Source: a virus. Taken from it: a DNA stretch of 64,000 nucleotides. The notes under the pieces were generated by a model, which saw nothing but the letters and a program-made list of their open reading frames with translations, searched no databases and was not told the origin of the DNA. Numbering within the stretch: the first letter of the stretch is position 1; every line of letters starts with the position of its first letter. Positions 1,358 to 48,753 of this stretch are shown here, piece by piece. Location of the stretch: positions 96,001-160,000 of IMG/VR virus record IMGVR_UViG_3300049846_002130; one strand, given 5' to 3'. Position numbers and translations under genes: made by a program.

Positions 1358-2230
1358 CTATCTCCATTTAGTAATTGGAATCATTAGACTTGGTATTGCT
1401 GTGTAGTTTGTCTGTACTACTTCTAAACAATTAAGTACTGCAAATTGTATTGCGTCACAGATTGTTAAGTAGTCAATTTCTTTTACTTTAGATTGTGTTA
1501 GGTATGTAGCAATTGCTGCAGTAAAACAATCTCCCGCCCCTGTGGCATCTACTACTTTTACTGCAGGTACATGAGTAATTACAACAGTGTTTTGACTTGC
1601 ATCTAGAAGACGTATTGCTTCTGGTCCATTTGTATGGATAGTCCAGTCGAATTTTCTACCGTAATTTTCATCATATTCTTGACCTGTAGCATGCCATATG
1701 GTTGTGTCTGCAATAGCCAAGAGTTTATCGGGTACAGAACGATATCTGGAGTCTACTATGGTAGCAGTTATTTTCTTTTTAGAAATAAGATTAGTCCAGT
1801 GTGGGTTGCTAACTAATCTTTCTAGTGCACCTTTATTGTAATCGGATATAGCCAGAACTACTTCGTCTGTTGGTGAGAATGTCTGAATAGCTGAACAAAG
1901 ATTATTATGGTATTGGTCTATATAAGTTTCCCAATCCGACAGTCTTTCTAGAATTGAGAACTTATAATCCCATGGACTATATCGGATTCTCTTAAGCATC
2001 AAGCTTGCATTTCTAGCATCTGATAAAAACATCTGACTGAGGTAGTCAACATTAAGTGAGTTTTCAAATCCATTGAATCCTTCTAGCTTAGATACATACC
2101 TTAGAGTGGCGGTAGCCCCGCCGTCAAATGACTTAGAATCTACTAGCTCATAATGTTTTTTTAATTCTCTATATTCTTGGTGCATATCAATCAAGAAATC
2201 ACCAAGCACACCTACTACTTTGTTTTGCAT
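1358..2230 (-). CDS. PfkB-family sugar kinase, HldE/RfaE domain I-like
   Basis: VLGDFLID, DGGA, ISDYNKGAL and VDATGAGD match HldE kinase-domain motifs. Confidence 0.75.
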   Translation of the reverse strand: MQNKVVGVLGDFLIDMHQEYRELKKHYELVDSKSFDGGATATLRYVSKLEGFNGFENSLNVDYLSQMFLSDARNASLMLKRIRYSPWDYKFSILERLSDWETYIDQYHNNLCSAIQTFSPTDEVVLAISDYNKGALERLVSNPHWTNLISKKKITATIVDSRYRSVPDKLLAIADTTIWHATGQEYDENYGRKFDWTIHTNGPEAIRLLDASQNTVVITHVPAVKVVDATGAGDCFTAAIATYLTQSKVKEIDYLTICDAIQFAVLNCLEVVQTNYTAIPSLMIPITKWR

Positions 2231-3321
2231 TAAAGCCTCGTTGTTAATCCGTGTGGTTGAGCCTCTATAGCTCCATTAGCTGTAATTTTAATCCATTTTG
2301 TATTTTTATATATTTTTCTAGAGTCTTTAATATTCAAATAGGTGCAGGCTGATCTTAATCCGCCCTCAAACTTTTCAACTATTGATCTTACAGTTGTTCC
2401 ATCCCACATCGTTTCTGGATGTGAAACTCCTTCTGGACATGAGTTAATTTTTGAGTATTGGTCTTGTTGAAACTCAGCAGATGCCTGACCCCTATAAGAT
2501 TTGTAAAGCTTCCCGTCTCTTGGCATCCAGCCAGCAGCCTCTCTTGCCTTAGAAAAAACACTACCAAGCATAGCCCCGTCCGCGCCCAAGGCAAGGTACT
2601 TGACAACATCACCTGGATAACGAATACCACCATCAGCTATTAAGATAATATCCGAGGCAGACGCACTATCTAGAAAGCTTCTAATTTGAAATACAGCATA
2701 GGCATTGGGAACACCAACCCCAGTCATAAGTCTAGTTGTACACCCCGCCCCAGGACCAACTCCTACACGCAGATGTGTTGCACCTGCATTGACACAAGAC
2801 CTTGCTTGCTCGGCAGTACAAATAGAACCTGACATTATGTTCTTGAAGCCAAAGCGCTTCCATTTCTCAATAGCTTTTAATGCTTGGGTTGTAGTTCCGT
2901 TAGCAACATCAATTGCTATCCCAAACTTTTCTAGATCAATATTGGTAACCTTATGAAGGGGTAACGAGAACTTACCATCTAGTCCGGTGGCAAAGAAGAC
3001 TGGCTCTGATGCTGTGCCAATCTCATTAGCTAGTTTTACTGTCTTAATAATTTCTTCTCTAGGTATAAACCTACTAACAACAGGGTTGTGTCCGTACTTT
3101 ATAAGCACAGCTGTCATTGAAGAGCCTGTTACTGTATCCATAGGAGCCGACCACAAGAAATTATGGGTTCTAACATCTTGTCTGCTGTTGACATTACTAG
3201 GAACTGGAATCAAAGTAATATCGTCAACTGTAAATGCTGGTCCACTTGTATATGTTGAAATCATCTGTAAACCTCTGTCGCTCTTTTCTTTAAAATCTTT
3301 AAGCCATTGTCCATATAGCAT
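2230..3321 (-). CDS. IMP dehydrogenase / GMP reductase family protein, no CBS domains
   Basis: SAPMDTVT, IDVANG, GVGPGAGCTT (catalytic Cys), ADGGIRYPGDVVK, MLGS, EGV. Confidence 0.9.
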   Translation of the reverse strand: MLYGQWLKDFKEKSDRGLQMISTYTSGPAFTVDDITLIPVPSNVNSRQDVRTHNFLWSAPMDTVTGSSMTAVLIKYGHNPVVSRFIPREEIIKTVKLANEIGTASEPVFFATGLDGKFSLPLHKVTNIDLEKFGIAIDVANGTTTQALKAIEKWKRFGFKNIMSGSICTAEQARSCVNAGATHLRVGVGPGAGCTTRLMTGVGVPNAYAVFQIRSFLDSASASDIILIADGGIRYPGDVVKYLALGADGAMLGSVFSKAREAAGWMPRDGKLYKSYRGQASAEFQQDQYSKINSCPEGVSHPETMWDGTTVRSIVEKFEGGLRSACTYLNIKDSRKIYKNTKWIKITANGAIEAQPHGLTTRL

Positions 3322-3530
3322 TCGTAGACATAGCCAATTTTAATATGGTCGATCTCATGTCCACTCAAGCCAAGTATTAGTTGTGGGAAGTCCATCAATA
3401 TTTCTGATGCATCTTCTAGGTTTAAATATGGACCAGCAGACAAAATTGAAGCTCCATTCGGAGCTTCAATTTCTAACTTAATTATAAAAAAGGTGTCTAA
3501 AGAATTTGTTTCTTGTTCTCGTCGTAGCAA
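3261..3530 (-). CDS. hypothetical protein
   Basis: ORF track entry; start moved to TTG at 3530, which has GGAG 6 nt upstream. Confidence 0.55.
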   Translation of the reverse strand: MLRREQETNSLDTFFIIKLEIEAPNGASILSAGPYLNLEDASEILMDFPQLILGLSGHEIDHIKIGYVYECYMDNGLKILKKRATEVYR

Positions 3531-4543
3531 ACATTTCTCCACGAACAATTGGCACATCTCCAATCGCCCAGTTCAAGTTCTTTCAATTCCTTTTTGGTTT
3601 TCTTACCACTAGAGGCTAACTCTATGTTTTCTTGCTTACGGTCTTCTATCTTTTCAAAAGCTTCTTTATTAGTTTTTGAAAGCTCACCAGCCTCATTGAG
3701 GCGCTGAATATAATCAGAACTATATTGGAGTTGATAATCTGCAGCAGGAATAACAAATTCATTAAAGGCATTCTGAACATAGGCATATTGATCAAGAATA
3801 TTTTCTATCGTTATTGGGGACCTTTCAATAGCTGTTACTATTGGTGATATACCTTTAAAGTATATTTTATGTTCTGAACCTTCAAGTTTGGTTTCAACTA
3901 AGTACTCGGAGAATACACCGGTATCTCTAGCTCCATAAAATAGTCTTTGCTTAAAGTCTTTAATAGACTTCTTTAGGTGCCATTCATAAAGAGCGGCCTG
4001 CATTAGATTACTATCGCGAGGCTTACCTAACTTACCAGTTTTCTTACTGGTTGTTGAACCCAAGACATCTTTTGCTTGGTGGCCATAAACACTTTTAATT
4101 TCTATACCATTAAGGGTTTCATTATTGGGGTCAATAACAATTAAGTCTAGTTTACCAACAAGATTGACTGATGGAATAATTACTTGTGTTTGGGCCTCAA
4201 TAAAGACACCAGACTCTTTTGCTTGCTCAACAATAAAGTCTTCGAATAGGTTACCAGCTGCCCAAATCCACTGCATATATCTATCTGTCGGGAGCTTACT
4301 AACGTTAAGTTTTTCTACTAGGGATTTATATGCGCTATTCTTTTTAGGATCGTAAGTGTAGTTTGTTATTGCAAATCTAAAGAATGTAGCTCGTCTACAA
4401 GCTCCAGTTACACTTGGTTCATTTAAGACAGAGTTAACAACTGCAGACGCTTCGCTTGGCCACAAGGCTGGGGGACGAATATCTCCTAGTCTTGGCCTTT
4501 CAAAGTGTGAGCTTATATGGCTTGCTAGGCTCCAATTACTCAT
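3497..4543 (-). CDS. Cas4-like / RecB-family PD-(D/E)XK exonuclease
   Basis: GKLDLI...EIKS...QAALY nuclease motifs; one N-terminal Cys (GACRR) plus C-terminal CANCSWRNVC, the Fe-S staple pattern. Confidence 0.75.
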   Translation of the reverse strand: MSNWSLASHISSHFERPRLGDIRPPALWPSEASAVVNSVLNEPSVTGACRRATFFRFAITNYTYDPKKNSAYKSLVEKLNVSKLPTDRYMQWIWAAGNLFEDFIVEQAKESGVFIEAQTQVIIPSVNLVGKLDLIVIDPNNETLNGIEIKSVYGHQAKDVLGSTTSKKTGKLGKPRDSNLMQAALYEWHLKKSIKDFKQRLFYGARDTGVFSEYLVETKLEGSEHKIYFKGISPIVTAIERSPITIENILDQYAYVQNAFNEFVIPAADYQLQYSSDYIQRLNEAGELSKTNKEAFEKIEDRKQENIELASSGKKTKKELKELELGDWRCANCSWRNVCYDENKKQIL

Positions 4544-4832
4544 CTAGTTTTACTTCAGATTCAGCACCAGAAGTCATCTTTTCGAGACTTTCTTTCTTCA
4601 GTCTCTCTACTTCGTCAAGAATCTCTTTCTGGCGACTAGTAGCGTATTCCTCAAACTTATCCAAATCAATTTGGATTAGTGGGTTGCCGCTAGCATCTTT
4701 AGCCATAACAATATGATCTAGCATGAATTCAATAAGCATTGAGGCTGTAAACATTTGCTCACCAAGTCTCTGTAGCTTTAGCTCATGAGCTTGGAGTACC
4801 CGCATTAGGGTTTCATCAATTTCGGGTTTCAT
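4536..4832 (-). CDS. hypothetical protein
   Basis: ORF coupled to its neighbours. Confidence 0.65.
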   Translation of the reverse strand: MKPEIDETLMRVLQAHELKLQRLGEQMFTASMLIEFMLDHIVMAKDASGNPLIQIDLDKFEEYATSRQKEILDEVERLKKESLEKMTSGAESEVKLDE

Positions 4833-5017
4833 TAGTTCTCCTTATAGTAAACAATAGTTTTAATAACACTTGACGAGTATGCAGATGTAACCTGACCAAG
4901 AATATTAATTCTATCTTTATTTTGTTCTAGCCATTTATCCATACGGTAATTTTCGTTACTATTGGGCTTATGATAAAAAGTTTTTGATAGGGTTTCGCTA
5001 GTCATTTTCCACCTCAA
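4832..5017 (-). CDS. hypothetical protein
   Basis: Short ORF coupled to its neighbours. Confidence 0.55.
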   Translation of the reverse strand: MRWKMTSETLSKTFYHKPNSNENYRMDKWLEQNKDRINILGQVTSAYSSSVIKTIVYYKEN

Positions 5018-6107
5018 AATCTAATTTGTTAGCTGGTAGCAGCTGACCACAGTATACAAAGTTTGACCTATTAAAGTCAGTATTACCTTCTTTGTCTTGA
5101 TAAATAACAGCATAGCCATTAATTGAATTGCCATTAATTATTTCTCTTGGCTGCCATGCGTAAGACATATAGTCTGCCATACAACCTTGTTCGATTAGTA
5201 AAAGAGAGTAGGCTATATGTTTACTAACTTTATGAGTATGGCCGCATACGATGGAATCAAAACTTCCTCTAGGAAGTCTTTCTAGAAACTTCTTTGCCCA
5301 GACATCTACTGTGAATCCGGGTTTGGAGCTTCCACGGTTATGAGGATGAACAAAGAGTGTTTTGCCTATTTTAATCCACCAAGACTCATGTTCTTGATAG
5401 TGAACATTTTTAAAGTTTAGTTTTTCGACTAGTTGGCCTTGTCTATTAAGACGCTCACCATTTGCGATTCTAGCAATAAGATCTGTTTCAAAGACAGTGA
5501 GAGCAGCTTGATTTATAGGCGCTTTCTTTAATAAGGAAGAGGTTCTGACATCGTGGTTACCACTAATCAGTATAACCTTAGGAAAGGTTTTTGAACAGTG
5601 CTCTATAAAATCAAATGCAGCCATATATTCTTCTATCGCTGCAATATCTTTATCCTTTTCAAATCTTGATGCTGCATAGCCATCTAAGATATCTCCATTT
5701 AAAACAATGATATCTGCATCTGCATGCTCCTTTAAGGCATGTCTTAGATGATCTTCTCTTGCTAAGGGAAAGTGGATATCAGATAAAGAAAGTATTTTTC
5801 TGCTAGAGGAGTTAACTAAGCCAACATCTGAGAATGAACTTTTATCTCCATGACGTTCTCTAGCTTTTTTTAGCTTGTCCCATGGACTAGCTGAGTTGTT
5901 GGTTGGTAGCTTTTGTTCTTTTCGTTTGTCGATACGTCTTAGTTTTCTTTCAATAGCTTCTGGGCTTCGAAGACTAATATTTGGTTTAGGAGTTGTATTA
6001 AGCTTTTTTTGAAAATAGCTAGCAACTTCTAAATAGCTTAGCCCTTCAGCTATTAGCTCTAATAAGAGCTGCTCTTCTGTATCTGACCACTTATTGGGAT
6101 TCGTCAT
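4998..6107 (-). CDS. calcineurin-like metallophosphoesterase with N-terminal HTH
   Basis: DIH, GDILD, GNHD and GHTH motifs; N-terminal WSDTEEQLL...RSPEAIERK Myb/HTH-like segment. Confidence 0.85.
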   Translation of the reverse strand: MTNPNKWSDTEEQLLLELIAEGLSYLEVASYFQKKLNTTPKPNISLRSPEAIERKLRRIDKRKEQKLPTNNSASPWDKLKKARERHGDKSSFSDVGLVNSSSRKILSLSDIHFPLAREDHLRHALKEHADADIIVLNGDILDGYAASRFEKDKDIAAIEEYMAAFDFIEHCSKTFPKVILISGNHDVRTSSLLKKAPINQAALTVFETDLIARIANGERLNRQGQLVEKLNFKNVHYQEHESWWIKIGKTLFVHPHNRGSSKPGFTVDVWAKKFLERLPRGSFDSIVCGHTHKVSKHIAYSLLLIEQGCMADYMSYAWQPREIINGNSINGYAVIYQDKEGNTDFNRSNFVYCGQLLPANKLDFEVEND

Positions 6108-17042: not shown

Positions 17043-17608
17043 TATGACTCTAGGTGTCTCATTTCTACAGCTTGAGAAATAGCAATAGAGTTTAAAGACT
17101 TCTCAACTTTATCTAACATATCAAGTTTTTCTCTCCAGTAATGTTTAAACATTGCTGAGGTCATAGATATATTATTAAGTTTCTGTAGAATAAGGTTTAC
17201 CATTTTTTCAAGTTGTGCTTGAGAGGGCGCTCTTATATTTTTCGAACTATATTCTAATAATAAGGAATTTATAACATCTGTCTTCTTAACAGATAAACTG
17301 TTCTTTAATGCAGTAGCACCAAGAGTACATATACTGTAATAATGACTAGCTATTTGAATGTTATTAGCAATTACTATATGTAGTTCTCTAATCATATCTG
17401 GAGATAGTTGTTTTGTAGAGGGGAAGGCTATAGCAAAACTTTCCTCCCACTCGTCAATGCTTTTACCAAAGAATTTAATTTGTGAAGAAAATATTTTGAT
17501 AAAAGCTTCTGCGTCTATCACATCCTCAAGTGCATCATCTAAGACTTTTTGAGAATCAACAACTGTAGCTTTAAGTTCTTTAGTTACTTCTTGTTCTATC
17601 AGGTCCAA
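17042..17608 (-). CDS. helical hypothetical protein
   Basis: Coupled ORF. Confidence 0.7.
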   Translation of the reverse strand: MDLIEQEVTKELKATVVDSQKVLDDALEDVIDAEAFIKIFSSQIKFFGKSIDEWEESFAIAFPSTKQLSPDMIRELHIVIANNIQIASHYYSICTLGATALKNSLSVKKTDVINSLLLEYSSKNIRAPSQAQLEKMVNLILQKLNNISMTSAMFKHYWREKLDMLDKVEKSLNSIAISQAVEMRHLES

Positions 17609-17988
17609 GGATTGCTTCTTTTAGCTGTTGTTTTTGCTGTAGGACGCGATGTGGTTTCTGGAGCTGCAGGAGCAGAAGTAGGCGCAGTACTAGAACCTAG
17701 GTACTCTTTAACGATAGCGTTAAGAATTTCTGCTTCCATGGTTGTTTGCTTAGCATCTTCAAACTCTTTGGGGTCTATAAAGTAAACAGTTGGCCACCAT
17801 ACCTTTTGTCCATTATCATCTACTTTACTACTAAGTTGAGATGGAGGCTTTGCAAATGGCTCACCAGCCTTACTTAAAAAGATTTTAAAGTCTTTAATTA
17901 CCAATGTGTCGTCAATAACTAGGTCACAAAAACCTGCAAGACTACCCATTGGACTTTGAAGCTTACGAAGTTTTAGAGAATAATTCAT
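17599..17988 (-). CDS. SpoVG-family nucleic-acid-binding protein with flexible tail
   Basis: LAGFCDLVIDDTLVIKDFKIF...FAKPPS...ILNAIVKEY. Confidence 0.75.
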   Translation of the reverse strand: MNYSLKLRKLQSPMGSLAGFCDLVIDDTLVIKDFKIFLSKAGEPFAKPPSQLSSKVDDNGQKVWWPTVYFIDPKEFEDAKQTTMEAEILNAIVKEYLGSSTAPTSAPAAPETTSRPTAKTTAKRSNPWT

Positions 17989-18154: not shown

Positions 18155-18389
18155 CGTTTTTCTCCATAAAAATTCTATATATATAGCCTAATCTAAAGGC
18201 TGTTGTGAACAGAACGCGAAAAGTCGAGTCTGAAAGATGCTGAGATAGAGCTTCTAAAGCTTTGTTAATAAATAGCTGTTGGTCTTCTTTCTCTGGATTA
18301 GCCATTAGTTTATTAAACAATAAGTCTACTAATTCTTTATTCGTGTATTTAGAAGTACCTGCTGAGGTTTTAACAGACCACATCACCAA
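18096..18389 (-). CDS. hypothetical protein
   Basis: Coupled ORF. Confidence 0.6.
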   Translation of the reverse strand: MVMWSVKTSAGTSKYTNKELVDLLFNKLMANPEKEDQQLFINKALEALSQHLSDSTFRVLFTTAFRLGYIYRIFMEKNDVTFESNSAQDTEFSSVSS

Positions 18390-18829
18390 CCTAACATCTT
18401 GGGTAAGGCTGTTCGTATAAGTATACCTAGGGCAGAGAACTCTCCCCCTGAGAGCGAAACTGTTATCATACGAGAGGTTCTATCAGCATCTGTTTGTCTG
18501 ATAGACATTAACCAAGTCCCAGCATACCGCTCATCTGTACTTTCCTTAAAAGAGATGGATTTAGTTGTTCCTTGGTACTCGTGAACAATCTTTGTTGTTT
18601 CTGGGTTTTCTAGTAAATGACAAAGATCTGCAGTACCTAATGCAATTGAAATTTTACCATCTTTCCAGTCGTATAGTTTATTTTCTCCATCTGTTCCAAC
18701 TACTTTTGCTGCTTCAACAAGAATTGCTCCTGCTTTATCCATCCAATCATTGTCTTTAGCTCTGGGAGCAAGAAATGAGAATTTGGCTGCAGCCGAGCCT
18801 TTAAAAATATCAAATGAGCCTGGCTTCAT
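18383..18829 (-). CDS. Whirly-domain ssDNA-binding protein
   Basis: IFKGSAA, YDW...I.L, GEFSAL and terminal LPKMLGW align colinearly with plant Whirly motifs (IYKGKAA, YDW, AEFAVL, LPYLIGW). Confidence 0.8.
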   Translation of the reverse strand: MKPGSFDIFKGSAAAKFSFLAPRAKDNDWMDKAGAILVEAAKVVGTDGENKLYDWKDGKISIALGTADLCHLLENPETTKIVHEYQGTTKSISFKESTDERYAGTWLMSIRQTDADRTSRMITVSLSGGEFSALGILIRTALPKMLGW

Positions 18830-19103: not shown

Positions 19104-19134
19104 AAAGTGGTCGGAGATTAACTCCGACCACTTT
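19104..19134 (-). terminator. 13-bp hairpin terminator closing the Ubl operon
   Basis: aaagtggtcggag / ctccgaccacttt, followed by a T-rich run on the minus strand. Confidence 0.75.
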
Positions 19135-19291
19135 CTACCTGTATGTTCCAAGCTTTTAATCCTCTATAAACTTCATACATTTTTATATCAGGATTTTGTT
19201 TACATCTTTCGATGAAGCCAGGAACATTGGCTTTGATTTGAGATAAGGCTTCTTTACATTGCTTAGGGGAATATACTTCCGTCCCAAACAT
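19118..19291 (-). CDS. 57-aa hypothetical protein coupled to the Ubl gene
   Basis: ATG overlaps the Ubl stop (TAATG). Confidence 0.55.
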   Translation of the reverse strand: MFGTEVYSPKQCKEALSQIKANVPGFIERCKQNPDIKMYEVYRGLKAWNIQVESGRS

Positions 19292-19512
19292 TAGAAAGCG
19301 CCTTTGGATCCCTGGACTGCCCAAATCTCTTCTACGCCATCTACACAGGTAGTAGAGAACTCACTAGGAGCTACCTCAGTTTCGCCACCAAGAAGAATCT
19401 TATAGGTGCTATCGATCTGTAGGTGAGACACTACATCTTGAACGGTAGTGCCCTGGGTAACTTGGACTGTCTTGGTGTTCCCCGCGGGAACAAATAGTAC
19501 ATGAATTGTCAT
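19291..19512 (-). CDS. ubiquitin-like (beta-grasp, ThiS/MoaD-like) protein
   Basis: 73 aa with beta-beta-alpha-beta pattern, ending GSKGAF; directly after the E1 gene (ATGA overlap). Confidence 0.7.
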   Translation of the reverse strand: MTIHVLFVPAGNTKTVQVTQGTTVQDVVSHLQIDSTYKILLGGETEVAPSEFSTTCVDGVEEIWAVQGSKGAF

Positions 19513-20222
19513 TCTATCTCCTTTAAGTTGTATTGCTTTACAAATAGTTTACTATCTTTCATAACTGTAATTGTTCCATATGGATATTTAAAGGCACTAG
19601 TTGTTGCTTTAGCAACCAGTAGCGTACAAATATATTGTACCATATAGGCAGATATCGTAGTTACAAGAGTGGAACATAGACGCTGATTACAAGGGCCTTC
19701 TGGAATGAGGCTATCATCCATAAAGCTATCTGTCCACTGTCTATATAGTTCAGAGTTTAAAGGATTTATTACATGTATTTCTCCATGTTCAAATCCAAGG
19801 CGTGCTTCAATAGCTAACAGTATATTTGTGTTATACAAGATACCTTGTGATATATCTTTTCGACTCTTCATAGAGTCGGTAGCTATTATTAAAAAGCCCT
19901 CCACATGCGCAGCATCAGCTGCGCTAGTATAAAACCTATTATATGTTTTTACTTCTATGTCTGGATTAAATTCACGAAGCAACTCTGACAATGCTTCTAC
20001 TTTAGATTTTCCTATATGTTTGGGAAAGAACTGCTGATTTGCTAGATTATAGTCTTCAACAACATCTGCATCATAAAGAACAAACTTTTTAAATCCCATA
20101 CGGGCCGCGATCATAGCAACATTAGAGCCAACACCCCCACATCCAACAATAACTATTGGATGTGTTATCATATTTGGATGTAGCCATCCAGAATGTCTTA
20201 GAAATGATGGCTTATTCTCCAT
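19509..20222 (-). CDS. ThiF/E1-like adenylyltransferase
   Basis: GCGGVGS, YDADVVEDYNLANQ, KSKVEAL, ATDSMKSR, EARLG; candidate thioester Cys in GPCNQ. Confidence 0.9.
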   Translation of the reverse strand: MENKPSFLRHSGWLHPNMITHPIVIVGCGGVGSNVAMIAARMGFKKFVLYDADVVEDYNLANQQFFPKHIGKSKVEALSELLREFNPDIEVKTYNRFYTSAADAAHVEGFLIIATDSMKSRKDISQGILYNTNILLAIEARLGFEHGEIHVINPLNSELYRQWTDSFMDDSLIPEGPCNQRLCSTLVTTISAYMVQYICTLLVAKATTSAFKYPYGTITVMKDSKLFVKQYNLKEIE

Positions 20223-20580
20223 ACTCGATTCCTTTAAAGAGCATTAATAGTTCTTTTAATACTTTTACTTTTTCTGTAGAGCTAGATTCTTTAAATACGG
20301 AGTTATCAACAAGATATAATGTTGTAGCTAAAAGTAAAACTAATACATTTGCATCAACAGCAGTTGTAGAAAACATCTTAGTTATTTCTGATAAGCTTAC
20401 TGGCTCAAATATATCTTTTATTGGTACTTTCTTTTCTTTAGCCGAAGTAACTATACGATGAAGCCTTATTGTAATACCTAGCCATCGTAATGCTTTATTT
20501 CTATCAAGTCCCCAACCTTTCAATAACAAAAGGAATCTATCTAAATGAGTCTGGATAGATGAAGGAGTCATTGCTTCCAC
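20212..20580 (-). CDS. hypothetical protein, or -1 frameshift extension of the JAB protein
   Basis: Frame stays open upstream past 20739, overlapping the JAB stop region. Confidence 0.65.
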   Translation of the reverse strand: MEAMTPSSIQTHLDRFLLLLKGWGLDRNKALRWLGITIRLHRIVTSAKEKKVPIKDIFEPVSLSEITKMFSTTAVDANVLVLLLATTLYLVDNSVFKESSSTEKVKVLKELLMLFKGIEYGE

Positions 20581-20726
20581 TAAGGATTCACCTGCTTCGA
20601 GTAGGTAGCTAAGTTTATATGGCTCGAAATCTGGTGACTCAATAATTTTAGTAATGAATTGATTTTTATTTATAAAGTCTATCTGTTGTTTATCAAATAG
20701 ATTTATAAATTTATAGTTACTTCGGC

Positions 20727-21467
20727 CTAGTGTTTTCCCATATAGTGAAACACAAAATCAGTTTGATCAGTAGTCGTTGTAGTGTCTTTCGAGGTCGTCG
20801 TACCAGCATACACGCTCTGAGCTAAAGGGGCGGGTGGACTTCCTCCAGAAGTTACTGTAACTACAGAACTCTTTTTACTAACCAAAGAGCTGATAGCACT
20901 ATCTATTTTCTTATAGTTATAGCTGTTTTCAACAGCTATTGGAGGCTGCTCGATTATAATCCCATCTAGACTTGGATCAAAGACTCTGCAATAAATATCA
21001 CGTTTCTGATTAAAGATTAGCATTGCTTTTGGTGTAGTAGCATCTTTAATTAGAGCTGTCCAGTTTTCTTGATCAGTACCAGTAGGCTTTGCTTCCATAT
21101 TAACATGGGAATGGCACCAAGCTCCTGCCTCAGACATCAAAGTCTTAAGCTCCGTAGCAGTAAGATTACGGTCTTTCTTAAGTTGTTGCCACATCTCAGC
21201 TAAGTCTGCTGGCTCACTATCAACTGTTATTGTGGTAACAGTTTGCTTTGGTATAAAGATATCACTAATTCGATAAAATATCTTACCGTTTTGACGCTCT
21301 GAATAATCTGGTATTATTCTAGAGTACCACTGACCCTCAAACGTCTTAAGTTCATCTACAAAGTATTCGCTTAACTCTAAACATTCTTGATCAAAAACCA
21401 CATAATATTTATAAGCAGTAGTAAGAGTTGGAGTCCTTTCTGCTATTAGTTTCTTAGATAGTGTCAT
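20727..21467 (-). CDS. JAB/MPN+ metallo-isopeptidase (deubiquitinase-like)
   Basis: FEGQW...WCHSHVNMEAKPTGTD fits E...HxHx7(S/T)xxD. Confidence 0.8.
   Translation of the reverse strand: MTLSKKLIAERTPTLTTAYKYYVVFDQECLELSEYFVDELKTFEGQWYSRIIPDYSERQNGKIFYRISDIFIPKQTVTTITVDSEPADLAEMWQQLKKDRNLTATELKTLMSEAGAWCHSHVNMEAKPTGTDQENWTALIKDATTPKAMLIFNQKRDIYCRVFDPSLDGIIIEQPPIAVENSYNYKKIDSAISSLVSKKSSVVTVTSGGSPPAPLAQSVYAGTTTSKDTTTTTDQTDFVFHYMGKH
20733..20739 (-). promoter_or_regulatory. candidate -1 ribosomal frameshift heptamer G-GGA-AAA
   Basis: X-XXY-YYZ in the JAB frame (ATG GGA AAA CAC TAG); the -1 frame is open to 20212. Confidence 0.6.
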
Positions 21468-21474
21468 CTATTTT

Positions 21475-23175
21475 TTAACCTTCTTCGTAAAGTGGAAACC
21501 ATGTATACTCTGCTCCCCACTGGTCCTTACTGTTAACCGATGTAACCCATGAATCAACTGCGTAAAACAACTGACCCAAATCTCCCTCAGAGATTGCCCT
21601 TTTAATATTTGCTTCTGCTTCTCCGAAACAAATTTTAGTTGGTTTATTATAAGCTGATTTTATGCTTTTGACATCTTTTCTATTCATAGCTGTTGCAGCT
21701 GAGTGTGGATGAGCCTTGATATTTACAATATCTCCTATAGCTGGAGAGATACCTATAATAGAACTTAAATCTAGAGGATATATTTTTCCAATTAGATCTC
21801 CTCTATAAGAATAACCAATACTTATTCTGTAGGGTCCTGCTACAACTAAAGTTGTATTAGTTCCTTTTTCTGCTTTATCAACATATAGAATTGAAGGCTT
21901 TATAGTCTGCAGCTCAATATTTAAACTTTGAATTCTATCTTTTTCTTCTATAAGCTCTTTTAAAAAGATACTGTATTTATCTTCTGTATTTAAATCTAAC
22001 TCTGTATAAGAATTATACATGGTCTCTATAGTAATAGCTTGTAAGCTATAATTAGATAAAAGTCCAAGGCCCAAAAATTTACAGAATGTTTTTGTATTTT
22101 TAAGTGTATTAAGATATATTTCTGCAGCTAAGTTACTATTGGTTTTCGCTATAGTTAAACTTTCTTTAATCTTTTGATGGGTTTCTAGATAACCTTTAAG
22201 CTTTAATTCAAGATCTTTAATAAGATTTTGATTACTTTCTACATTTTTTGTAACTGAAAGATCCTCAGAAAGAAGGGTATTTAAAAGATTAGTTTTAGTT
22301 TGAAATTCTTTTGCTCTTTCTTTTAATAAGATATATTCTTGTGATGGTCTTGGAATAAAGAGAGGCTCAGCTTTAAAGTCTTTGTCTACTTGTAGCTCAG
22401 TATCAATCTTATTTGCATCTTCTGGTGTAAGTAGCTCTGCTAAAACATTCCAGTTTTTAGTTAAGCTATTAAGATTAGTTAGGTCAATAGGCTTATTGAA
22501 AGCTGCGGCCCCACTATTAAGATACTTAATCATAAACTCGTGAATAGTTTTACCATAGGTGGCATATAGCTTTGCACTACATTTTGGTAAAACCATTACA
22601 TTGTGATTAACTATAGTATTATTAGCTTTTATAAATGGTAGGTTTAAGAAGAATACTTTTGGTGTCCTTGGATTCAAGGGCAAGTCTTCAACAACCACAT
22701 CCTTTAGAGAATTGGTCACGATATCGAAAACTGTAATACTATCTTTTGGTAATTGAGTTTTTAATATATTTAATAATGAATTATTAGAAAAGATAAAGGT
22801 TGAGTAGTCTCCAACATGACCATTAACTTTAGAACACCAACTTAATGCTTCTGTATACTTTATTGAATGCCAATCTTTGTCTAGTAGACTAGTTAAGCTT
22901 TCTAACTGTTTATAACTTAAATTAGGTAAGCTTGGTATTTTAAAATTAGGTAGTGTTGGATGTATGAATAGCAATATCTTAGGAATAAGATTGCTATAGT
23001 ATAATTCTCTTCCTCCTGGAAGTGTTTGGGGCTCAAAGGTGGAGGAAAGTGAAATTTTTGATTCTACGTAAACGTTATTTTCTTTTCTTCTATACATAAC
23101 TAACTGTTTAGTAGCAGACTGTGCTTCTAAAAAGTGGTTGCCTATTAATGCGTCAGTTGATAAAACAATACTCAT
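21475..23175 (-). CDS. prokaryotic E2/UBC-like domain on a long N-terminal and coiled-coil region
   Basis: C-terminal GPYRISI...HPH...ICFG...helix...VNSKDQWG pattern; located next to JAB, E1 and Ubl genes. Confidence 0.6.
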   Translation of the reverse strand: MSIVLSTDALIGNHFLEAQSATKQLVMYRRKENNVYVESKISLSSTFEPQTLPGGRELYYSNLIPKILLFIHPTLPNFKIPSLPNLSYKQLESLTSLLDKDWHSIKYTEALSWCSKVNGHVGDYSTFIFSNNSLLNILKTQLPKDSITVFDIVTNSLKDVVVEDLPLNPRTPKVFFLNLPFIKANNTIVNHNVMVLPKCSAKLYATYGKTIHEFMIKYLNSGAAAFNKPIDLTNLNSLTKNWNVLAELLTPEDANKIDTELQVDKDFKAEPLFIPRPSQEYILLKERAKEFQTKTNLLNTLLSEDLSVTKNVESNQNLIKDLELKLKGYLETHQKIKESLTIAKTNSNLAAEIYLNTLKNTKTFCKFLGLGLLSNYSLQAITIETMYNSYTELDLNTEDKYSIFLKELIEEKDRIQSLNIELQTIKPSILYVDKAEKGTNTTLVVAGPYRISIGYSYRGDLIGKIYPLDLSSIIGISPAIGDIVNIKAHPHSAATAMNRKDVKSIKSAYNKPTKICFGEAEANIKRAISEGDLGQLFYAVDSWVTSVNSKDQWGAEYTWFPLYEEG

Positions 23176-23178
23176 TTG

Positions 23179-23589
23179 TTACCCATTGTTAATAAAAGCT
23201 TTTGCTAAGTTTTCAATAAAATAATTAAGCACAAGGTTTCTTGATTTAGTATCATCAAGAATTTTAGGCCCTAAGAGAGAGATACCTAATTTAGTGGCTG
23301 AATTATTTTTTCTGTTATCCAGTCCAAAGTCTTCTAAGATCAGATCTACTTTTTTAGTATCAAGATAAATAAACTCTTTATTTAAGATTGTTTTAATTAT
23401 TCCTGCAGGCATGGGGAATAAGGTTGCTGCACCACGCGCAAAACAAGCACTTGACTGAAAATCAAAATATGGAGAAAGAATGTTTATTACTTCAGTATCC
23501 AACAAGCAGCCTTCTCTCATATAATAACCTAACAAAGCTTTCTGTAGGTTTGAGTAAACAAATGGGTTATTTAAATCCCATTTGTTCAT
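23179..23589 (-). CDS. hypothetical protein
   Basis: ATG at 23589 with GGAG SD. Confidence 0.65.
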   Translation of the reverse strand: MNKWDLNNPFVYSNLQKALLGYYMREGCLLDTEVINILSPYFDFQSSACFARGAATLFPMPAGIIKTILNKEFIYLDTKKVDLILEDFGLDNRKNNSATKLGISLLGPKILDDTKSRNLVLNYFIENLAKAFINNG

Positions 23590-23833
23590 ATATATACTCC
23601 AACACATCTGCCCCATCAGGGGCATTGATAAGCTCATCTATATCTATAGATATACCTATCGAATAGCAGATAGGACAAATATTACTTATATCGTCTCTAG
23701 TTGCTTTATAGCCACATTCTAATTCTGAACATATAAAGTACTTAGAAGCCAATTCCTGGTTTTCTGCTAGGGGTGGCTTTAGATTTTCTACTAATGACAA
23801 ATTCTTCATCCTTAGCAATATGTTTCTGTACAA
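23567..23833 (-). CDS. small zinc-ribbon protein, start uncertain
   Basis: CSELEC...CPIC. Confidence 0.55.
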   Translation of the reverse strand: MYRNILLRMKNLSLVENLKPPLAENQELASKYFICSELECGYKATRDDISNICPICYSIGISIDIDELINAPDGADVLEYIYEQMGFK

Positions 23834-25046
23834 GAAGTAGTTTTAAGTTTTTTTCTATTGTTCTTATACTGTCGTGAGTTAGTAGATTACTAATATCTAA
23901 GTCATTAGTAATAGTGTCTGAAATAGATAATTCTTTAGAAATCTTTGGAATAAGTTTGTTTTTTATAAGTTCCTTAAGCTCTTCAGTAGAATAGTTTCTG
24001 AAATGAACTTCGGTTAATCGATCTCTAAACGGCTTAGATAGTTTAGTATTGTCATTACTTGTAAATATAAAGGTAATGTTAGAAACATCAATAGGTTGAT
24101 TTATATAAGCATCTACCCAATTGGTATTCTGGCTTGGATCTAATAAACTTAAAAAGCTATTTTGTACTTCCGTGGAGCTTTTATCTATCTCGTCACATAC
24201 AAGAATTGGGTTTAAGCATTTGGTATTAATTAGTTCTTGAACTATAATTCCTGGAGAACTATTTGTATACGTTCTTAGGAAGCCAGAAACATAATTTTTA
24301 TCAGTCTTATCTCCGAGACTAAACACTCTCATTGGAGTTTCTAGTAGCTTTGCTAAATCATATGCAAACGTAGTTTTACCTACACCAGGAGGCCCACTAA
24401 ATAATAATGGTGGAAGGCCAGGCTTATCTAAGAAATAAGAGTAGCGTATGGTTAAGTACAACATAAGCTGATCTTCTTTTGATAAAGGTAAGACTTCTAT
24501 AAGATTTTTTATCTCTCCAATAGCATATTTTAAAGGTAGAGTTGTTTTAGGGATTTGGTCTAGGTACTGAATATAATTATTTAGATTATTATATTCAGTA
24601 GATCCAGGAACGAGTTTAGATAAACTGGACTTTAAAGAAAGCAACTTATTTGTTTTTTCTAAAAGAAACATAAGTGCTTCTTGAGAAGATAGCTCAAGAT
24701 ATTTTGCTCTTTCCTCTAAAGATGTCAGTATTAGTTCTGCTTTGCTATCTAATTCTTCAGTTGAAAAGCAATTAAGTGCATTAGCTTCTAGGGGCTCTGC
24801 AGAAATTGGTTCATATATATTACTTGTATAGTCTCTACAGAATATTTTAGATGTTGGTACAAATCTAATATTAGAGTCTTCAGGAAAAGCAGAGCCTATA
24901 TAACCTATAGTAAGTAGTTTGTCTTTATATGTAATTAGAACTACTGCTTCATATGGTTCTTGCGAATAGGGCTCAATATTAATTAATTTAAAACTTTGTA
25001 AGTATATAGGAATATGTACTTGTAATGGGACTATATGTATTCTCAT
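23742..25046 (-). CDS. Lon-type AAA+ ATPase without protease domain
   Basis: GPPGVGKT, RTYTNSSPG, CDEIDK, LLDPSQN, DVSNITFIFTSN; ends RKPGIGF. Confidence 0.85.
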   Translation of the reverse strand: MRIHIVPLQVHIPIYLQSFKLINIEPYSQEPYEAVVLITYKDKLLTIGYIGSAFPEDSNIRFVPTSKIFCRDYTSNIYEPISAEPLEANALNCFSTEELDSKAELILTSLEERAKYLELSSQEALMFLLEKTNKLLSLKSSLSKLVPGSTEYNNLNNYIQYLDQIPKTTLPLKYAIGEIKNLIEVLPLSKEDQLMLYLTIRYSYFLDKPGLPPLLFSGPPGVGKTTFAYDLAKLLETPMRVFSLGDKTDKNYVSGFLRTYTNSSPGIIVQELINTKCLNPILVCDEIDKSSTEVQNSFLSLLDPSQNTNWVDAYINQPIDVSNITFIFTSNDNTKLSKPFRDRLTEVHFRNYSTEELKELIKNKLIPKISKELSISDTITNDLDISNLLTHDSIRTIEKNLKLLLVQKHIAKDEEFVISRKSKATPSRKPGIGF

Positions 25047-47489: not shown

Positions 47490-47710
47490 AATAAGAAATT
47501 ATCTAACTTATTTGCAGATAAAGTCTTAATTTGATTCAAGATCTTATCTAGTTCTTCAATAGATTGAAATGATTTGGACCCTAAATAGGCTCTATGTCTT
47601 GCCCAAGATGGAAATCCCCATACATATATTCTATTAGATTCTATCCGTATTGCTAGATTTTTAGCTTCAATTATAGAGTATAAATCAGCTAAACCAATCA
47701 TCTGATCCAA
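47486..47710 (-). CDS. hypothetical protein
   Basis: Coupled to mnmA. Confidence 0.55.
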   Translation of the reverse strand: MDQMIGLADLYSIIEAKNLAIRIESNRIYVWGFPSWARHRAYLGSKSFQSIEELDKILNQIKTLSANKLDNFLF

Positions 47711-48753
47711 CCTCCGCCAATTACTTGGCCTTGTCTATAAACAACTGCTGCCTGTCCAGGTGTAACTACTGTTGGCGTTTCTATATGTATTGTTTTAGAA
47801 CCATATACATCGTCTAAAGATATGGTTTTAACTGGAATACTATTCTTCCTATAGCGAATAACAACTTCAATATCGTTGGTTGGAGTGGGCTCTTCCCAAC
47901 TAATCCAACCATCTACTCTAAAGCTAGTAACAGCATTAGCATCTCTAATGTCAGATACATATACTGTACTTGTATCCTTATCTATACGAGTAACAAACAA
48001 CGGATTATTGCTTTGTGTAATATTTAATCCACGACGTTGGCCAATAGTAAAGTTATGAAGACCATTATGCTTTCCTAAAGTGTTTCCATTCTCATGCTTA
48101 ATTAAACCACTAGTACCAGAAAGATAAGTTACTATCTGCTTTTCTAAAAATTCTTTATGGGTACCATTAGGAGCAAAGCATAAATTTTGACTTTCTTGCT
48201 TATCTGCAATTGGTAAATCAAGCTCCTTAGCTAAAGCTCTTACATTTTCCTTAGTTAAAGTAGCTAGTGGAAAAAGAATTTTAGATCTAAACAATGGATC
48301 TATTGGGAATAGAAAATAAGATTGATCCTTATTACTATCAAAAGCTTTATAAAGCTTATTGTCAATTAGCTGAGCATAGTGTCCAGTCGCGACATAATCA
48401 TATCCAAGCGTCTGTGCCAACTCAATAAGCAAATTGAACTTAAGAATGCCATTGCAATGAGTACACGGAATAGGAGTGCGGCCATTAAAGTATTCCTCCA
48501 CAAAATTCTGAAGTACAAACTTCTTAAAGTGTGCTCGGTAATCTGTTACGAAGTATGGTATGTTAAGCTCACTACAAACTATATTGGCATCAATAGCATC
48601 TTGTTGTCCACAACAAGACTTTGATATAACTTCTTTAACTTCGTCATGGAGCTTCATATGAACTCCAAGTACATCATGGCCATCTCTCTTGAGTAAAGCA
48701 GCAGCAACACTGCTGTCAACACCGCCTGACATTGCTACTAAAACTTTAGACAT
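47698..48753 (-). CDS. mnmA: tRNA U34 2-thiouridylase
   Basis: AMSGGVDS, PCTHCN, ATGHYA, KDQSYFL, ESQNLCF, TIGQRRGL, TPGQAAV. Confidence 0.95.
   Translation of the reverse strand: MSKVLVAMSGGVDSSVAAALLKRDGHDVLGVHMKLHDEVKEVISKSCCGQQDAIDANIVCSELNIPYFVTDYRAHFKKFVLQNFVEEYFNGRTPIPCTHCNGILKFNLLIELAQTLGYDYVATGHYAQLIDNKLYKAFDSNKDQSYFLFPIDPLFRSKILFPLATLTKENVRALAKELDLPIADKQESQNLCFAPNGTHKEFLEKQIVTYLSGTSGLIKHENGNTLGKHNGLHNFTIGQRRGLNITQSNNPLFVTRIDKDTSTVYVSDIRDANAVTSFRVDGWISWEEPTPTNDIEVVIRYRKNSIPVKTISLDDVYGSKTIHIETPTVVTPGQAAVVYRQGQVIGGGWIR

What the first reader, a model, noticed from the sequence alone, without database searches (positions are those of the whole stretch)
19104..23175. Complete phage-encoded ubiquitin-like conjugation operon: E2 - JAB - E1 - Ubl
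Seen: four tightly coupled genes, ending at a terminator, with E2-like (HPH...CFG), JAB (HSH...TxxD), E1 (GxGxxG, Cys) and beta-grasp signatures. Established: such gene sets perform protein conjugation in bacteria, including antiviral systems (CBASS Cap2/Cap3, Bil), and similar gene sets have been noted computationally in some large phages. Inference: this phage tags host defence proteins or its own proteins. Having an E2 and lacking ThiG/MoaE-type genes argues against sulfur transfer, although MnmA at 47.7 kb keeps that alternative open.
Basis: partly seen in the sequence, partly recalled or inferred. Interest (0 to 1): 0.9.

Follow-up and report, generated by a model that had tools for sequence, protein, structure and literature searches.

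The report
Phage ubiquitin-like tagging gene cassette
An uncultured 183-kb phage, and a whole lineage of its relatives, carries its own ubiquitin-style kit: a small tag made as a precursor, a trimming protease, an activating enzyme and a probable carrier enzyme. Such kits have so far been studied in bacteria only as anti-phage defences, and what this one tags is unknown.

Summary

**Components**
- **E1:** a firm ThiF-type enzyme (Pfam 5e-28).
- **Protease:** a JAMM/JAB peptidase. The E..HxHx7(S/T)xxD motif is invariant, and all six relatives scanned give sub-threshold Prok-JAB hits.
- **Tag:** ThiS/SAMP2-like. It always ends Lys-Gly plus 1-2 variable residues. One relative encodes a head-to-tail double tag, so it is made as a precursor.

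**Other findings**
- The JAB gene ends in a conserved GGGAAAA slippery site, and the -1 frame reads into the next ORF. Distant relatives have the two fused.
- The gene order is kept in all six contexts with enough flank.
- The complete phage genome lacks ThiG, MoaE, rhodanese and cysteine desulfurase.

**Reading:** most likely a phage-encoded tag-conjugation system (about 0.6).

**Prior record:** this scan has reported other phage Ubl cassettes on other DNA, but not this E2-like family. I found no paper describing one.

The parts
21475..23175 (-). 566-aa 'E2-like' protein: poorly modelled N-terminal region (1-172), long coiled-coil helix (279-360), conserved C-terminal domain
   Evidence: ORF. 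Only 3 close homologues, but 208 cluster representatives match in 1.8 billion. AlphaFold model.
21478..21933 (-). C-terminal UBC/RWD-like domain (residues 415-566). HPH is at nt 21703-21711 and the putative catalytic Cys516 at nt 21628-21630.
20727..21467 (-). JAMM/JAB metallopeptidase, 246 aa in the zero frame. The motif H119-S-H121-x7-T129-x2-D132 is at nt 21072-21113, and Glu44 is upstream.
   Evidence: E44, W47, H119, S120, H121, P128 and D132 are invariant in 6 homologues. PADLOC JAB models E 0.003-0.018. Prok-JAB is the top Pfam hit in 6 of 6 relatives, E 6e-5 to 0.1.
20733..20739 (-). Slippery heptamer G_GGA_AAA, one codon before the JAB stop (TAG at 20727-20729)
   Evidence: The same nucleotides GGGAAAAC occur at the same place in L002, L003 and L004. 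L006 has A_AAA_AAA instead.
20212..20739 (-). -1-frame extension, the 'middle' helical ORF (175 codons from the heptamer). It is probably made as a JAB-long fusion of about 420 aa.
   Evidence: The -1 frame is open from the heptamer. Amino acids are conserved right after it (GKTL[GS]R..Y..) before any ATG, GTG or TTG in the window, L002 and L004. In L008, L009 and L010, JAB plus a C-terminal extension form one ORF of 363-412 aa.
19509..20222 (-). ThiF-type E1 adenylating enzyme, 237 aa. Invariant Cys178 is at nt 19689-19691.
   Evidence: Pfam ThiF 98.2 bits against a cut-off of 28.1. The best solved relatives are UBA5, ThiF and MccB. A 7-sequence alignment shows the invariant motifs and one invariant Cys.
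19291..19512 (-). Ubl precursor, 73 aa, ThiS/SAMP2-like beta-grasp, ending K70-G71-A72-F73
   Evidence: Weak Pfam hits only to beta-grasp families. SAMP2 in 3 of 4 homologues (best E 4e-4) and ThiS 6e-4. K-G is invariant and followed by A, AF or N. A tandem double Ubl is at L008:12781-13287.
19118..19291 (-). Conserved 57-aa ORF. Its ATG shares one base with the Ubl stop. Function unknown.
   Evidence: Translation. Orthologues follow the Ubl in L002 (56 aa) and L006.
19104..19134 (-). Terminator-like hairpin that closes the gene run
   Evidence: 13-bp stem, 7 GC pairs, 5-nt loop, T-rich tail.
23179..23637 (-). Conserved upstream neighbour (listed ORF 152 aa; orthologues 142-151 aa start at MNKWDLNNPF), function unknown
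   Evidence: Present directly upstream of the E2-like gene in L002, L005, L006 and L007. No family hit.

Best explanation
This is a phage-encoded ubiquitin-like protein-conjugation module, conserved across a large lineage of uncultured phages. The proposed steps are as follows.

1. The 73-aa beta-grasp tag is made as a precursor ending Lys-Gly-Ala-Phe. In relatives it ends Lys-Gly-Ala or Lys-Gly-Asn, or is a head-to-tail double tag.
2. The JAMM/JAB metallopeptidase trims it to expose the C-terminal Gly71. It probably also removes the tag from targets.
3. The peptidase is made in two forms: 246 aa, and about 420 aa through a -1 ribosomal frameshift at GGGAAAA.
4. The ThiF-type E1 adenylates that glycine with ATP and probably takes it as a thioester on the invariant Cys178.
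5. The tag passes to the invariant Cys516, next to the invariant His-Pro-His, in the UBC-like C-terminal domain of the 566-aa protein.
6. The coiled coil and the variable N-terminal region of that protein would choose the target, acting as E2 and adaptor in one. The tag ends on a target lysine.

**Shown here:** gene content, motif invariance, conserved order, the precursor form of the tag, E1 family membership, and absence of sulfur-pathway partners in the phage genome.

**Inferred:** every chemical step, the processing site, the role of Cys516 and Cys178, and the frameshift. The target is unknown. The cassette sits in the replication and nucleotide-metabolism block.
For: **E1**
- Pfam ThiF scores 98.2 bits.
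- Its nearest solved relative is UBA5.
- One Cys is invariant in 7 phage E1s. It lines up with 'EGVC' of UBA5's second, non-significant stretch. From memory, that is UBA5's catalytic Cys250.

**JAB**
- E..HxHx7(S/T)xxD is invariant.
- PADLOC JAB hits.
- Prok-JAB is the top hit in 6 of 6 relatives.

**Ubl**
- SAMP2 and ThiS hits.
- K-G is invariant and followed by 1-2 variable residues.
- L008 encodes a tandem double tag followed by a tail, which demands proteolytic maturation as for polyubiquitin.

**E2-like**
- G447, HPH, C516, G518 and D551 are invariant in 150 homologues drawn from 208 matching cluster representatives.
- The domain model is confident (pLDDT 90.5).
- The only named ESM-Atlas neighbour is Prok-E2_D.

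**Linkage**
- The order E2-like, JAB, E1, Ubl is kept in the window, L002, L006, L008, L009 and L010. This holds although the E2-like proteins are only about 20% identical.
- The Ubl follows E1 directly except in L008, where it lies two genes further on.

**Against sulfur transfer**
- The complete 183.5-kb genome has no ThiG above cut-off, and no MoaE, rhodanese or cysteine desulfurase.
Against: - Bacterial E2s (Cap2, BilB) do not appear among the top rows.
- His-Pro-His lies 24 residues before the Cys, against about 8-10 in classical E2s (my knowledge).
- The tag does not end in Gly as encoded.
- The window JAB has Thr where the motif has Ser.
- Prokaryotic Ubl conjugation can run without any E2 (SAMP, TtuB), so the 566-aa protein need not be a carrier.
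- No target, no E3 and no biochemical evidence.
Confidence: 0.6

Rival explanations
1. E2-independent tagging, as in archaeal SAMP/UbaA or Thermus TtuB/TtuC. The E1 alone activates the tag and passes it to lysines, and JAB trims and removes it. The 566-aa HPH/Cys protein would then be a scaffold, a regulator or the main substrate, not a carrier enzyme.
For: - E1, JAB and Ubl are the well-supported parts.
- The E2 fold match is weak.
- The best Pfam hit of the tag family is SAMP2.
Against: - His-Pro-His and Cys are invariant in 150 homologues from 208 matching cluster representatives. That looks like an active site rather than a scaffold.
- The nearest structural neighbours are UBC/UEV/RWD.
- The gene lies directly upstream of JAB in all six contexts.
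Confidence: 0.15
2. Sulfur-carrier pathway. The tag is adenylated and turned into a thiocarboxylate that donates sulfur to a nucleoside, cofactor or small molecule. JAB only unmasks the C-terminus, as Mec+ does for CysO or QbsD for QbsE.
For: - The tag family resembles ThiS/SAMP2, and the E1 resembles ThiF, MoeB and MccB.
- JAB-trimmed sulfur carriers are known (my knowledge).
- A MnmA tRNA 2-thiouridylase is encoded at 47698-48753.
Against: - The complete phage genome has no ThiG above cut-off, and no MoaE, rhodanese or cysteine desulfurase.
- The E1 is only 237 aa and has no rhodanese domain.
- MnmA takes sulfur from persulfide relays, not from Ubl thiocarboxylates (my knowledge).
- The pathway gives no role to the always-linked HPH/Cys protein.
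- A tandem double tag is typical of protein modifiers, not of sulfur carriers.
Confidence: 0.12
3. Counter-defence by interference. The phage enzymes do not build their own conjugates. They act on host Ubl-based immunity (type II CBASS, Bil). For example, JAB strips host conjugates, and the E1/E2-like proteins soak up or mis-route the host tag.
For: - The E1 scores against CBASS E1-E2 and 6A-MBL cap2_3 models.
- JAB scores weakly against CBASS Cap3-type JAB models.
- Anti-defence genes (Gad2-like, Tad2-like) lie nearby in relatives L006, L008 and L009.
Against: - The phages carry their own conserved tag gene with a family-specific C-terminus. Pure interference would not need one.
- The cassette is a stable core of the replication gene block across very divergent relatives, not a variable accessory island.
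Confidence: 0.08

Closest known systems
Bil (BilABCD) bacterial ISG15-like anti-phage systems (10.1101/2023.09.04.556158; 10.1101/2023.09.26.559546)
   Same: Separate genes for a Ubl, an E2, a JAB peptidase and a ThiF-type E1 in one operon. The papers describe a cysteine thioester cascade and peptidases that pre-process Ubls.
   Different: This cassette is encoded by a phage, not by a host defence island. Here the E2-like domain is the tail of a 566-1115-aa coiled-coil protein and matches no E2 model. The tag ends Lys-Gly-X rather than in an exposed Gly. JAB carries a frameshifted or fused helical extension. No defence-system model matched beyond partial E1 and weak JAB hits.
Type II CBASS Cap2 (E1-E2 fusion) and Cap3 (JAB) (PMC10097602)
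   Same: ThiF-type E1 chemistry paired with a JAB peptidase. The phage E1 gives its best PADLOC scores against Cap2-type E1-E2 models, E 1e-17.
   Different: E1 and E2 are not fused here. The locus has no CD-NTase and no effector. A dedicated beta-grasp tag is present, whereas CBASS conjugates the CD-NTase itself.
Archaeal SAMP/UbaA/HvJAMM1 and Thermus TtuB/TtuC systems (PMC4443979; PMC2948915)
   Same: A ThiS/MoaD-like tag, a single small E1 and a JAMM peptidase. The best Pfam hit of the tag family is SAMP2.
   Different: Those systems have no E2 and double as sulfur carriers. Here an HPH/Cys UBC-like protein is always linked, and the genome lacks sulfur-pathway partners.
Eukaryotic polyubiquitin precursors
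   Same: Relative L008 encodes two head-to-tail tag repeats followed by a tail. The single-copy tags carry 1-2 extra C-terminal residues. Both must be cut to expose Gly.
   Different: The tag is ThiS/SAMP2-like, not ubiquitin. The terminus is Lys-Gly, not Gly-Gly. The likely processing enzyme is a JAMM metallopeptidase.
Phage lambda/T1 tail assembly proteins I (Ubl) and K (JAB + NlpC/P60) (PMC1779556)
   Same: A phage-encoded beta-grasp protein with a conserved C-terminal glycine next to a JAB peptidase.
   Different: That pair has no E1 and no E2 and sits among tail genes. This cassette has an E1 and an E2-like protein and sits among replication genes.
Bub (bacterial ubiquitination-like) operons (PMC11601596)
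   Same: A diverged prokaryotic E1/E2/Ubl set whose Ubl is released from a precursor by an operon-encoded peptidase.
   Different: According to that paper, Bub works through oxyester intermediates and uses a serine protease. Here the candidate catalytic residues are invariant cysteines and the peptidase is JAMM.

Membership tests
E1-like ThiF/MoeB adenylyltransferase superfamily | Match to the family model above its curated cut-off | tested here: met
   Pfam PF00899: 98.2 bits against a cut-off of 28.1, E 5.2e-28, residues 23-208. Confirmed on the genome.
E1-like ThiF/MoeB adenylyltransferase superfamily | Nucleotide-binding GxGxxG and the acidic and Arg residues of the adenylation site | tested here: met
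   GxGxxGS, DxDxVExxNLxNQ, HIGxxK and D....R are invariant in 7 phage E1s. Assignment of their roles is from my knowledge of MoeB and ThiF.
E1-like ThiF/MoeB adenylyltransferase superfamily | Catalytic cysteine for a thioester (needed for a conjugating E1, not for the family as such) | tested here: inconclusive
   One Cys (C178, motif EGPC) is invariant in 7 sequences. It is also present in the FpV4 and cr128_1 E1s. It lines up with UBA5 'EGVC' only in a non-significant stretch.
JAMM/MPN+ (JAB) metallopeptidases | Active-site motif E ... HxHx7Sx2D | tested here: met
   E44, H119, H121 and D132 are invariant in 6 homologues. The Ser position is Thr in the window protein and in two close relatives, and Ser in the other three aligned and in L008-L010.
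JAMM/MPN+ (JAB) metallopeptidases | Match to a family model above cut-off | tested here: inconclusive
   The window protein has no Pfam hit and PADLOC JAB E 0.003-0.018. Relatives give Prok-JAB as the top hit in 6 of 6, E 6e-5 to 0.1, all below the 25-bit cut-off. A profile search against PDB sequences found nothing.
UBC/E2 superfamily | UBC alpha/beta fold | tested here: inconclusive
UBC/E2 superfamily | Conserved His(-Pro-Asn) followed by the catalytic Cys | tested here: met
   H489-P490-H491 and C516 are invariant in 150 homologues. The spacing is 24 residues, longer than in classical E2s. Whether they superpose on HPN and Cys could not be checked, because no residue-level structural alignment is available.
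UBC/E2 superfamily | Match to an E2 sequence model (UQ_con, Prok-E2_A-E) | tested here: not met
   No such hit at E <= 1 in the window protein or in 75 family members. There is only an ESM-Atlas feature neighbour, Prok-E2_D, at 0.86.
ThiS/MoaD/SAMP-type beta-grasp modifiers | Beta-grasp family membership | tested here: inconclusive
   The window protein has five weak hits, all to beta-grasp families (E about 0.1). Relatives give SAMP2 in 3 of 4 (best 4e-4) and ThiS 6e-4, below cut-offs. Not folded.
ThiS/MoaD/SAMP-type beta-grasp modifiers | C-terminal Gly(-Gly) available for adenylation | tested here: not met
   As encoded, the tag ends K-G-A-F. Relatives end K-G-A or K-G-N. The invariant Gly would be exposed only after trimming.
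Type II CBASS (Cap2/Cap3) | E1-E2 fusion protein with CD-NTase and effector genes in the operon | tested here: not met
   The E1 is a separate 237-aa protein. PADLOC hits cover only the E1 part of Cap2-type models, and no CD-NTase or effector model was hit in the cassette.
Thiamin/molybdopterin-type sulfur-carrier pathways | Partner enzymes that load or use the thiocarboxylate (ThiG, MoaE, rhodanese, cysteine desulfurase) | tested here: not met
   None is present above cut-off in the complete 183,528-bp genome. The same searches found these families in 11-14 of 14 control genomes. Host enzymes cannot be excluded.

The most novel reading that the evidence does not exclude
A large, mostly uncultured phage lineage carries its own complete ubiquitin-like conjugation pathway as a core part of its replication gene block. 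The lineage may extend to crAss-like gut phages and Flavobacterium phages, which share the unknown-protein, long-JAB, ThiF gene trio. The pathway would include:
- a previously unrecognised E2 family (HPH...C-x-G) fused to coiled-coil adaptors,
- polyubiquitin-like tag precursors,
- a JAMM peptidase made in two forms by programmed frameshifting.

If so, protein tagging would be a viral tool for controlling infection, not only a cellular defence.
Probability: 0.4. Interest if true: 0.85.

Novelty: new variant of a known kind. Interest (0 to 1): 0.74.

Why it matters
- Prokaryotic ubiquitin-like conjugation has been shown at the bench only in archaea and in bacterial anti-phage systems (CBASS, Bil, Bub).
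- A phage-owned version kept across relatives only about 20% identical would mean viruses of bacteria also use covalent protein tagging. That mirrors the way eukaryotic viruses exploit ubiquitin.
- It would add a new E2-like family that current catalogues miss.
- It would give a second prokaryotic case of poly-tag precursors.
- The Lys-Gly terminus gives a practical handle. Trypsin would leave a single-Gly (+57 Da) remnant on modified lysines.
- If the crAss-like and FpV4 gene trios prove related, the system could be tested in cultured phage-host pairs.

Tried and rejected
- **DNA and tblastn searches of GenBank phages** with the region and the 566-aa protein: no match.
- **IMG/VR and GTDB genome scans** with E2-like alignments: no relatives, or the alignment was too divergent. 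These scans are pattern-based, so they are weak evidence of absence.
- **Whole-protein model:** fold searches were swamped by the coiled coil, so I re-folded the domain alone.
- **Foldseek and the second-look VIA search** on the domain gave nothing convincing.
- **Profile searches against PDB sequences:** the JAB profile gave no hits. The Ubl profile gave only repeat-protein noise plus weak SAMP2.
- **Pfam on 75 E2-like family members:** only coiled-coil noise, plus WGR in three.
- **hhalign, middle ORF against the C-terminal extension of fused JABs:** no similarity, so their equivalence is positional only.
- **hhalign, E2-like domain against the crAss-like/FpV4 420-435-aa proteins:** only a 10-residue GGPY match. 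HSH...C comes before GGPY there and after it here, so I do not claim homology.
- **Search for longer fused forms of the tag:** none found.
- **ESM Atlas on the N-terminal region:** nothing usable.
- **DnaE tblastn to place the phage:** uninformative.
- **MccB-like peptide-adenylate chemistry:** considered because some tags end in Asn. Rejected because the last residue varies (A, AF, N).
- **Stimulatory hairpin for the frameshift:** one folds well (z -3.8) but starts 22 nt after the heptamer, further than usual.

Full report
**Setting.** The window is bases 96001-160000 of a 183,528-bp virus record. The record has direct terminal repeats and is estimated 100% complete. The window carries a split DnaE, RecA, ribonucleotide reductase, a ClpB-like ATPase, MnmA and six tRNAs. 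All genes of the finding lie on the minus strand.

**What is in the stretch.** One search lists the following, from upstream to downstream:
- a 566-aa ORF (23175-21475);
- a 246-aa ORF (21467-20727);
- an ORF listed as 122 aa (20580-20212), whose frame is open up to 20745;
- a 237-aa ORF (20222-19509);
- a 73-aa ORF (19512-19291);
- a small ORF whose likely ATG at 19291 gives 57 aa.

A strong terminator-like hairpin sits at 19134-19104.

**E1.** The 237-aa protein is a ThiF-family enzyme.
- Pfam scores 98.2 bits against a cut-off of 28.1.
- The nearest solved sequences are UBA5, an unnamed ThiF-type protein (9egc), ThiF and MccB.
- NCBIfam and PADLOC give partial hits to ThiF, MoeB, 6A-MBL cap2_3 and CBASS E1-E2 models, none above a curated cut-off.
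- An alignment of seven phage orthologues keeps the nucleotide-binding and adenylation motifs and exactly one cysteine, C178 in 'EGPC'.
- That cysteine lines up with 'EGVC' of UBA5 in a stretch that is not significant on its own. From memory, this is UBA5's catalytic Cys250.

**JAB.** The 246-aa protein has no Pfam hit.
- Three PADLOC JAB models hit the HSH...D region, E 0.003-0.018.
- In six homologues E44, W47, H119, S120, H121, P128 and D132 are invariant. This is the JAMM signature E..HxHx7(S/T)xxD. The window protein has Thr at the Ser position, and more distant relatives have Ser.
- Prok-JAB is the top Pfam hit in six of six relatives scanned, E 6e-5 to 0.1, always below cut-off.

**The tag.** The 73-aa protein gives five weak Pfam hits, all to beta-grasp families.
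- Among four orthologues, SAMP2 is hit in three (best E 4e-4) and ThiS in one (6e-4).
- The C-terminus is the informative part. It reads GSKGAF in the window, GSKGA in L002 and L004, AQKGA in L006, SVKGN in L009 and SVKGA in L010.
- Lys-Gly is therefore invariant and is followed by one or two variable residues.
- In L008 the tag gene encodes two head-to-tail repeats, each ending GSVKGN, followed by a 27-residue Gly/Pro/Arg-rich tail.
- The tag is thus made as a precursor that must be cut. The adjacent JAMM peptidase is the obvious candidate (inference).

**The "E2".** The 566-aa protein has only two close homologues in 5.8 billion proteins.
- A profile search of 1.8 billion representatives found 208 matches, 94 of them below 1e-10. 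All match through the coiled coil plus the C-terminal 150 residues.
- In 150 of them G447, H489-P490-H491, C516, G518 and D551 are invariant. P448, W543, W553, G554 and F560 are nearly so.
- None of ten, and then 75, members has any E2 Pfam hit. Three carry a WGR domain.
- The full-length model is poor at the N-terminus, has an 80-residue helix, and is confident at the C-terminus. Fold searches with it returned only coiled coils.
- The domain alone (residues 376-566) folds with pLDDT 90.5 and pTM 0.85.
- Foldseek finds nothing in the PDB.
- The order of secondary-structure elements is helix, beta-meander, HPH, Cys, three helices. That matches a UBC fold with insertions (the comparison is from my knowledge).
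- The only named neighbour among 30 ESM-Atlas feature hits is a Prok-E2_D cluster, score 0.86, which is a lead only.
- I read this as a probable, highly diverged E2-like domain. The fold test is formally inconclusive.

**Linkage.** Six contexts have enough flank, and the gene order is the same in all of them:
- the window;
- L002 (34% identical E2-like protein);
- L006, from a 151-kb contig (about 22% identical);
- L008, L009 and L010.

In each, the order is E2-like, JAB, E1, tag. Only in L008 is the tag displaced, by two genes. The partial contigs agree. The surrounding block is also conserved: AAA+ ATPase, UDG, PhoH, Whirly and SpoVG. Synteny among close relatives therefore proves little. 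What carries weight is that the order persists at about 20% identity.

**Frameshift.** A first-stage note (e1-5816544) proposed a -1 frameshift at the end of JAB. I tested it comparatively.
- In the window, L002, L003 and L004 the JAB gene ends ...Gly-Lys-(His/Arg)-stop, with the identical nucleotides GGGAAAAC.
- The -1 frame is open from that heptamer into the next ORF in all four. Where enough sequence is held (window, L002, L004), the amino acids just after the heptamer are conserved (GKTL[GS]R..Y..) before any ATG, GTG or TTG.
- L006 has A_AAA_AAA at the same place, and there too the downstream ORF is in the -1 frame.
- In L008, L009 and L010, JAB and a C-terminal helical extension form one ORF of 363-412 aa.
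- The extension diverges too fast for hhalign to link the split and fused forms.
- I conclude that a short and a long JAB are probably made. This is not shown.

**Sulfur-transfer rival.** The complete genome has no MoaE, rhodanese or cysteine desulfurase, and only a 15-bit sub-threshold ThiG-like stretch. The same searches find these families in 11-14 of 14 control genomes. The E1 has no rhodanese domain. MnmA does not use Ubl thiocarboxylates (my knowledge). Host enzymes cannot be excluded.

**Wider leads.**
- tblastn with the E1 finds ThiF-like genes in 90 GenBank phage records, mostly Bacteroides crAss-like and Flavobacterium phages.
- In crAss-like cr128_1 and in Flavobacterium phage FpV4, the ThiF gene is preceded by a long JAB with a canonical motif (381-423 aa). 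Before that lies a 420-435-aa protein with HSH...C[LI]G...GGPY motifs.
- The cr128_1 protein is a weak BFVD Foldseek match of my domain model, E 0.064 and probability 0.90.
- hhalign does not support homology, and the motif order differs. This remains a lead.

**Literature.**
- Iyer et al. 2006 (PMC1779556) describe bacterial E1/E2/JAB/Ubl operons. For phages they describe only the lambda-type tail-assembly Ubl and JAB pair.
- The Bil and Bub papers I read or searched for phage terms do not mention phage-encoded systems. The CBASS paper came up in the searches but I did not read it.
- One 2026 preprint notes in passing a gut-phage protein family that resembles UBA5.
- I found no paper describing a complete phage cassette. 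The library is incomplete.

**Earlier scan notes.** This scan has reported phage-encoded Ubl cassettes on other genomes several times. The E2-like family here was not matched by sequence to any other noted genome.

**Verdict.** The most likely reading is a phage-owned tag-conjugation system with a precursor tag, a two-form JAMM peptidase, a ThiF-type E1 and a new UBC-like carrier (about 0.6). The weakest link is the E2 assignment. The target and biological role are unknown.

Noticed in passing
window 20733-20739 (minus strand) and 20212-20739; L002, L003, L004, L006: A conserved slippery heptamer sits one codon before the JAB stop: GGGAAAA, or AAAAAAA in L006. The downstream ORF is in the -1 frame, and amino acids are conserved across the 'intergenic' gap. 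Distant relatives have one fused ORF. This is probably a programmed -1 frameshift giving two JAB forms.
   Followed up: yes
L008:12781-13287: A tandem double Ubl gene: two roughly 70-aa repeats, each ending GSVKGN, then a 27-aa Gly/Pro/Arg-rich tail. It is a polyubiquitin-like precursor in a phage.
   Followed up: partly
L011 (crAss-like phage cr128_1, MT774392) 2270-5654; L012 (Flavobacterium phage FpV4, KT876724) 1607-5618: Cultured or catalogued phages carry a similar trio: a 420-435-aa protein with HSH...C[LI]G...GGPY, a long JAB with a canonical motif, and ThiF. The FpV4 289-aa protein upstream starts with a beta-grasp-looking segment of about 82 aa ending VKSGG, followed by a long acidic tail. 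The cr128_1 ThiF has a 100-aa N-terminal extension.
   Followed up: partly
proteins of alignment A8 (E2-like family): Three of 75 family members carry a WGR domain (Pfam E 1.5e-14) ahead of the coiled coil. This hints that the variable N-terminal regions are target- or ligand-binding modules.
   Followed up: no
window 23742-25046 (minus strand): A 434-aa AAA+ ATPase lies two genes upstream of the cassette (AAA, AAA_2, AAA_5; PHROG 15585). An AAA+ gene is also kept upstream in L006, L009 and L010. First-stage notes suggest a Lon-like unfoldase ending in IGF.
   Followed up: no
L008:5940-6806, L009:4950-5789, L006:1-241: Relatives carry genes with precomputed Pfam hits to the anti-defence families Gad2 and Tad2-like, a few genes upstream of the cassette.
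   Followed up: no
window 18383-18829 and 17599-17988 (minus strand): Downstream neighbours correspond to genes that carry Whirly and SpoVG Pfam hits in relatives. They are part of the conserved block around the cassette.
   Followed up: no
window 20660-20710 (minus strand): An AU-rich 17-bp hairpin lies 22 nt after the slippery site (MFE -13.5 kcal/mol, z -3.8). The spacing is longer than for usual frameshift stimulators.
   Followed up: partly
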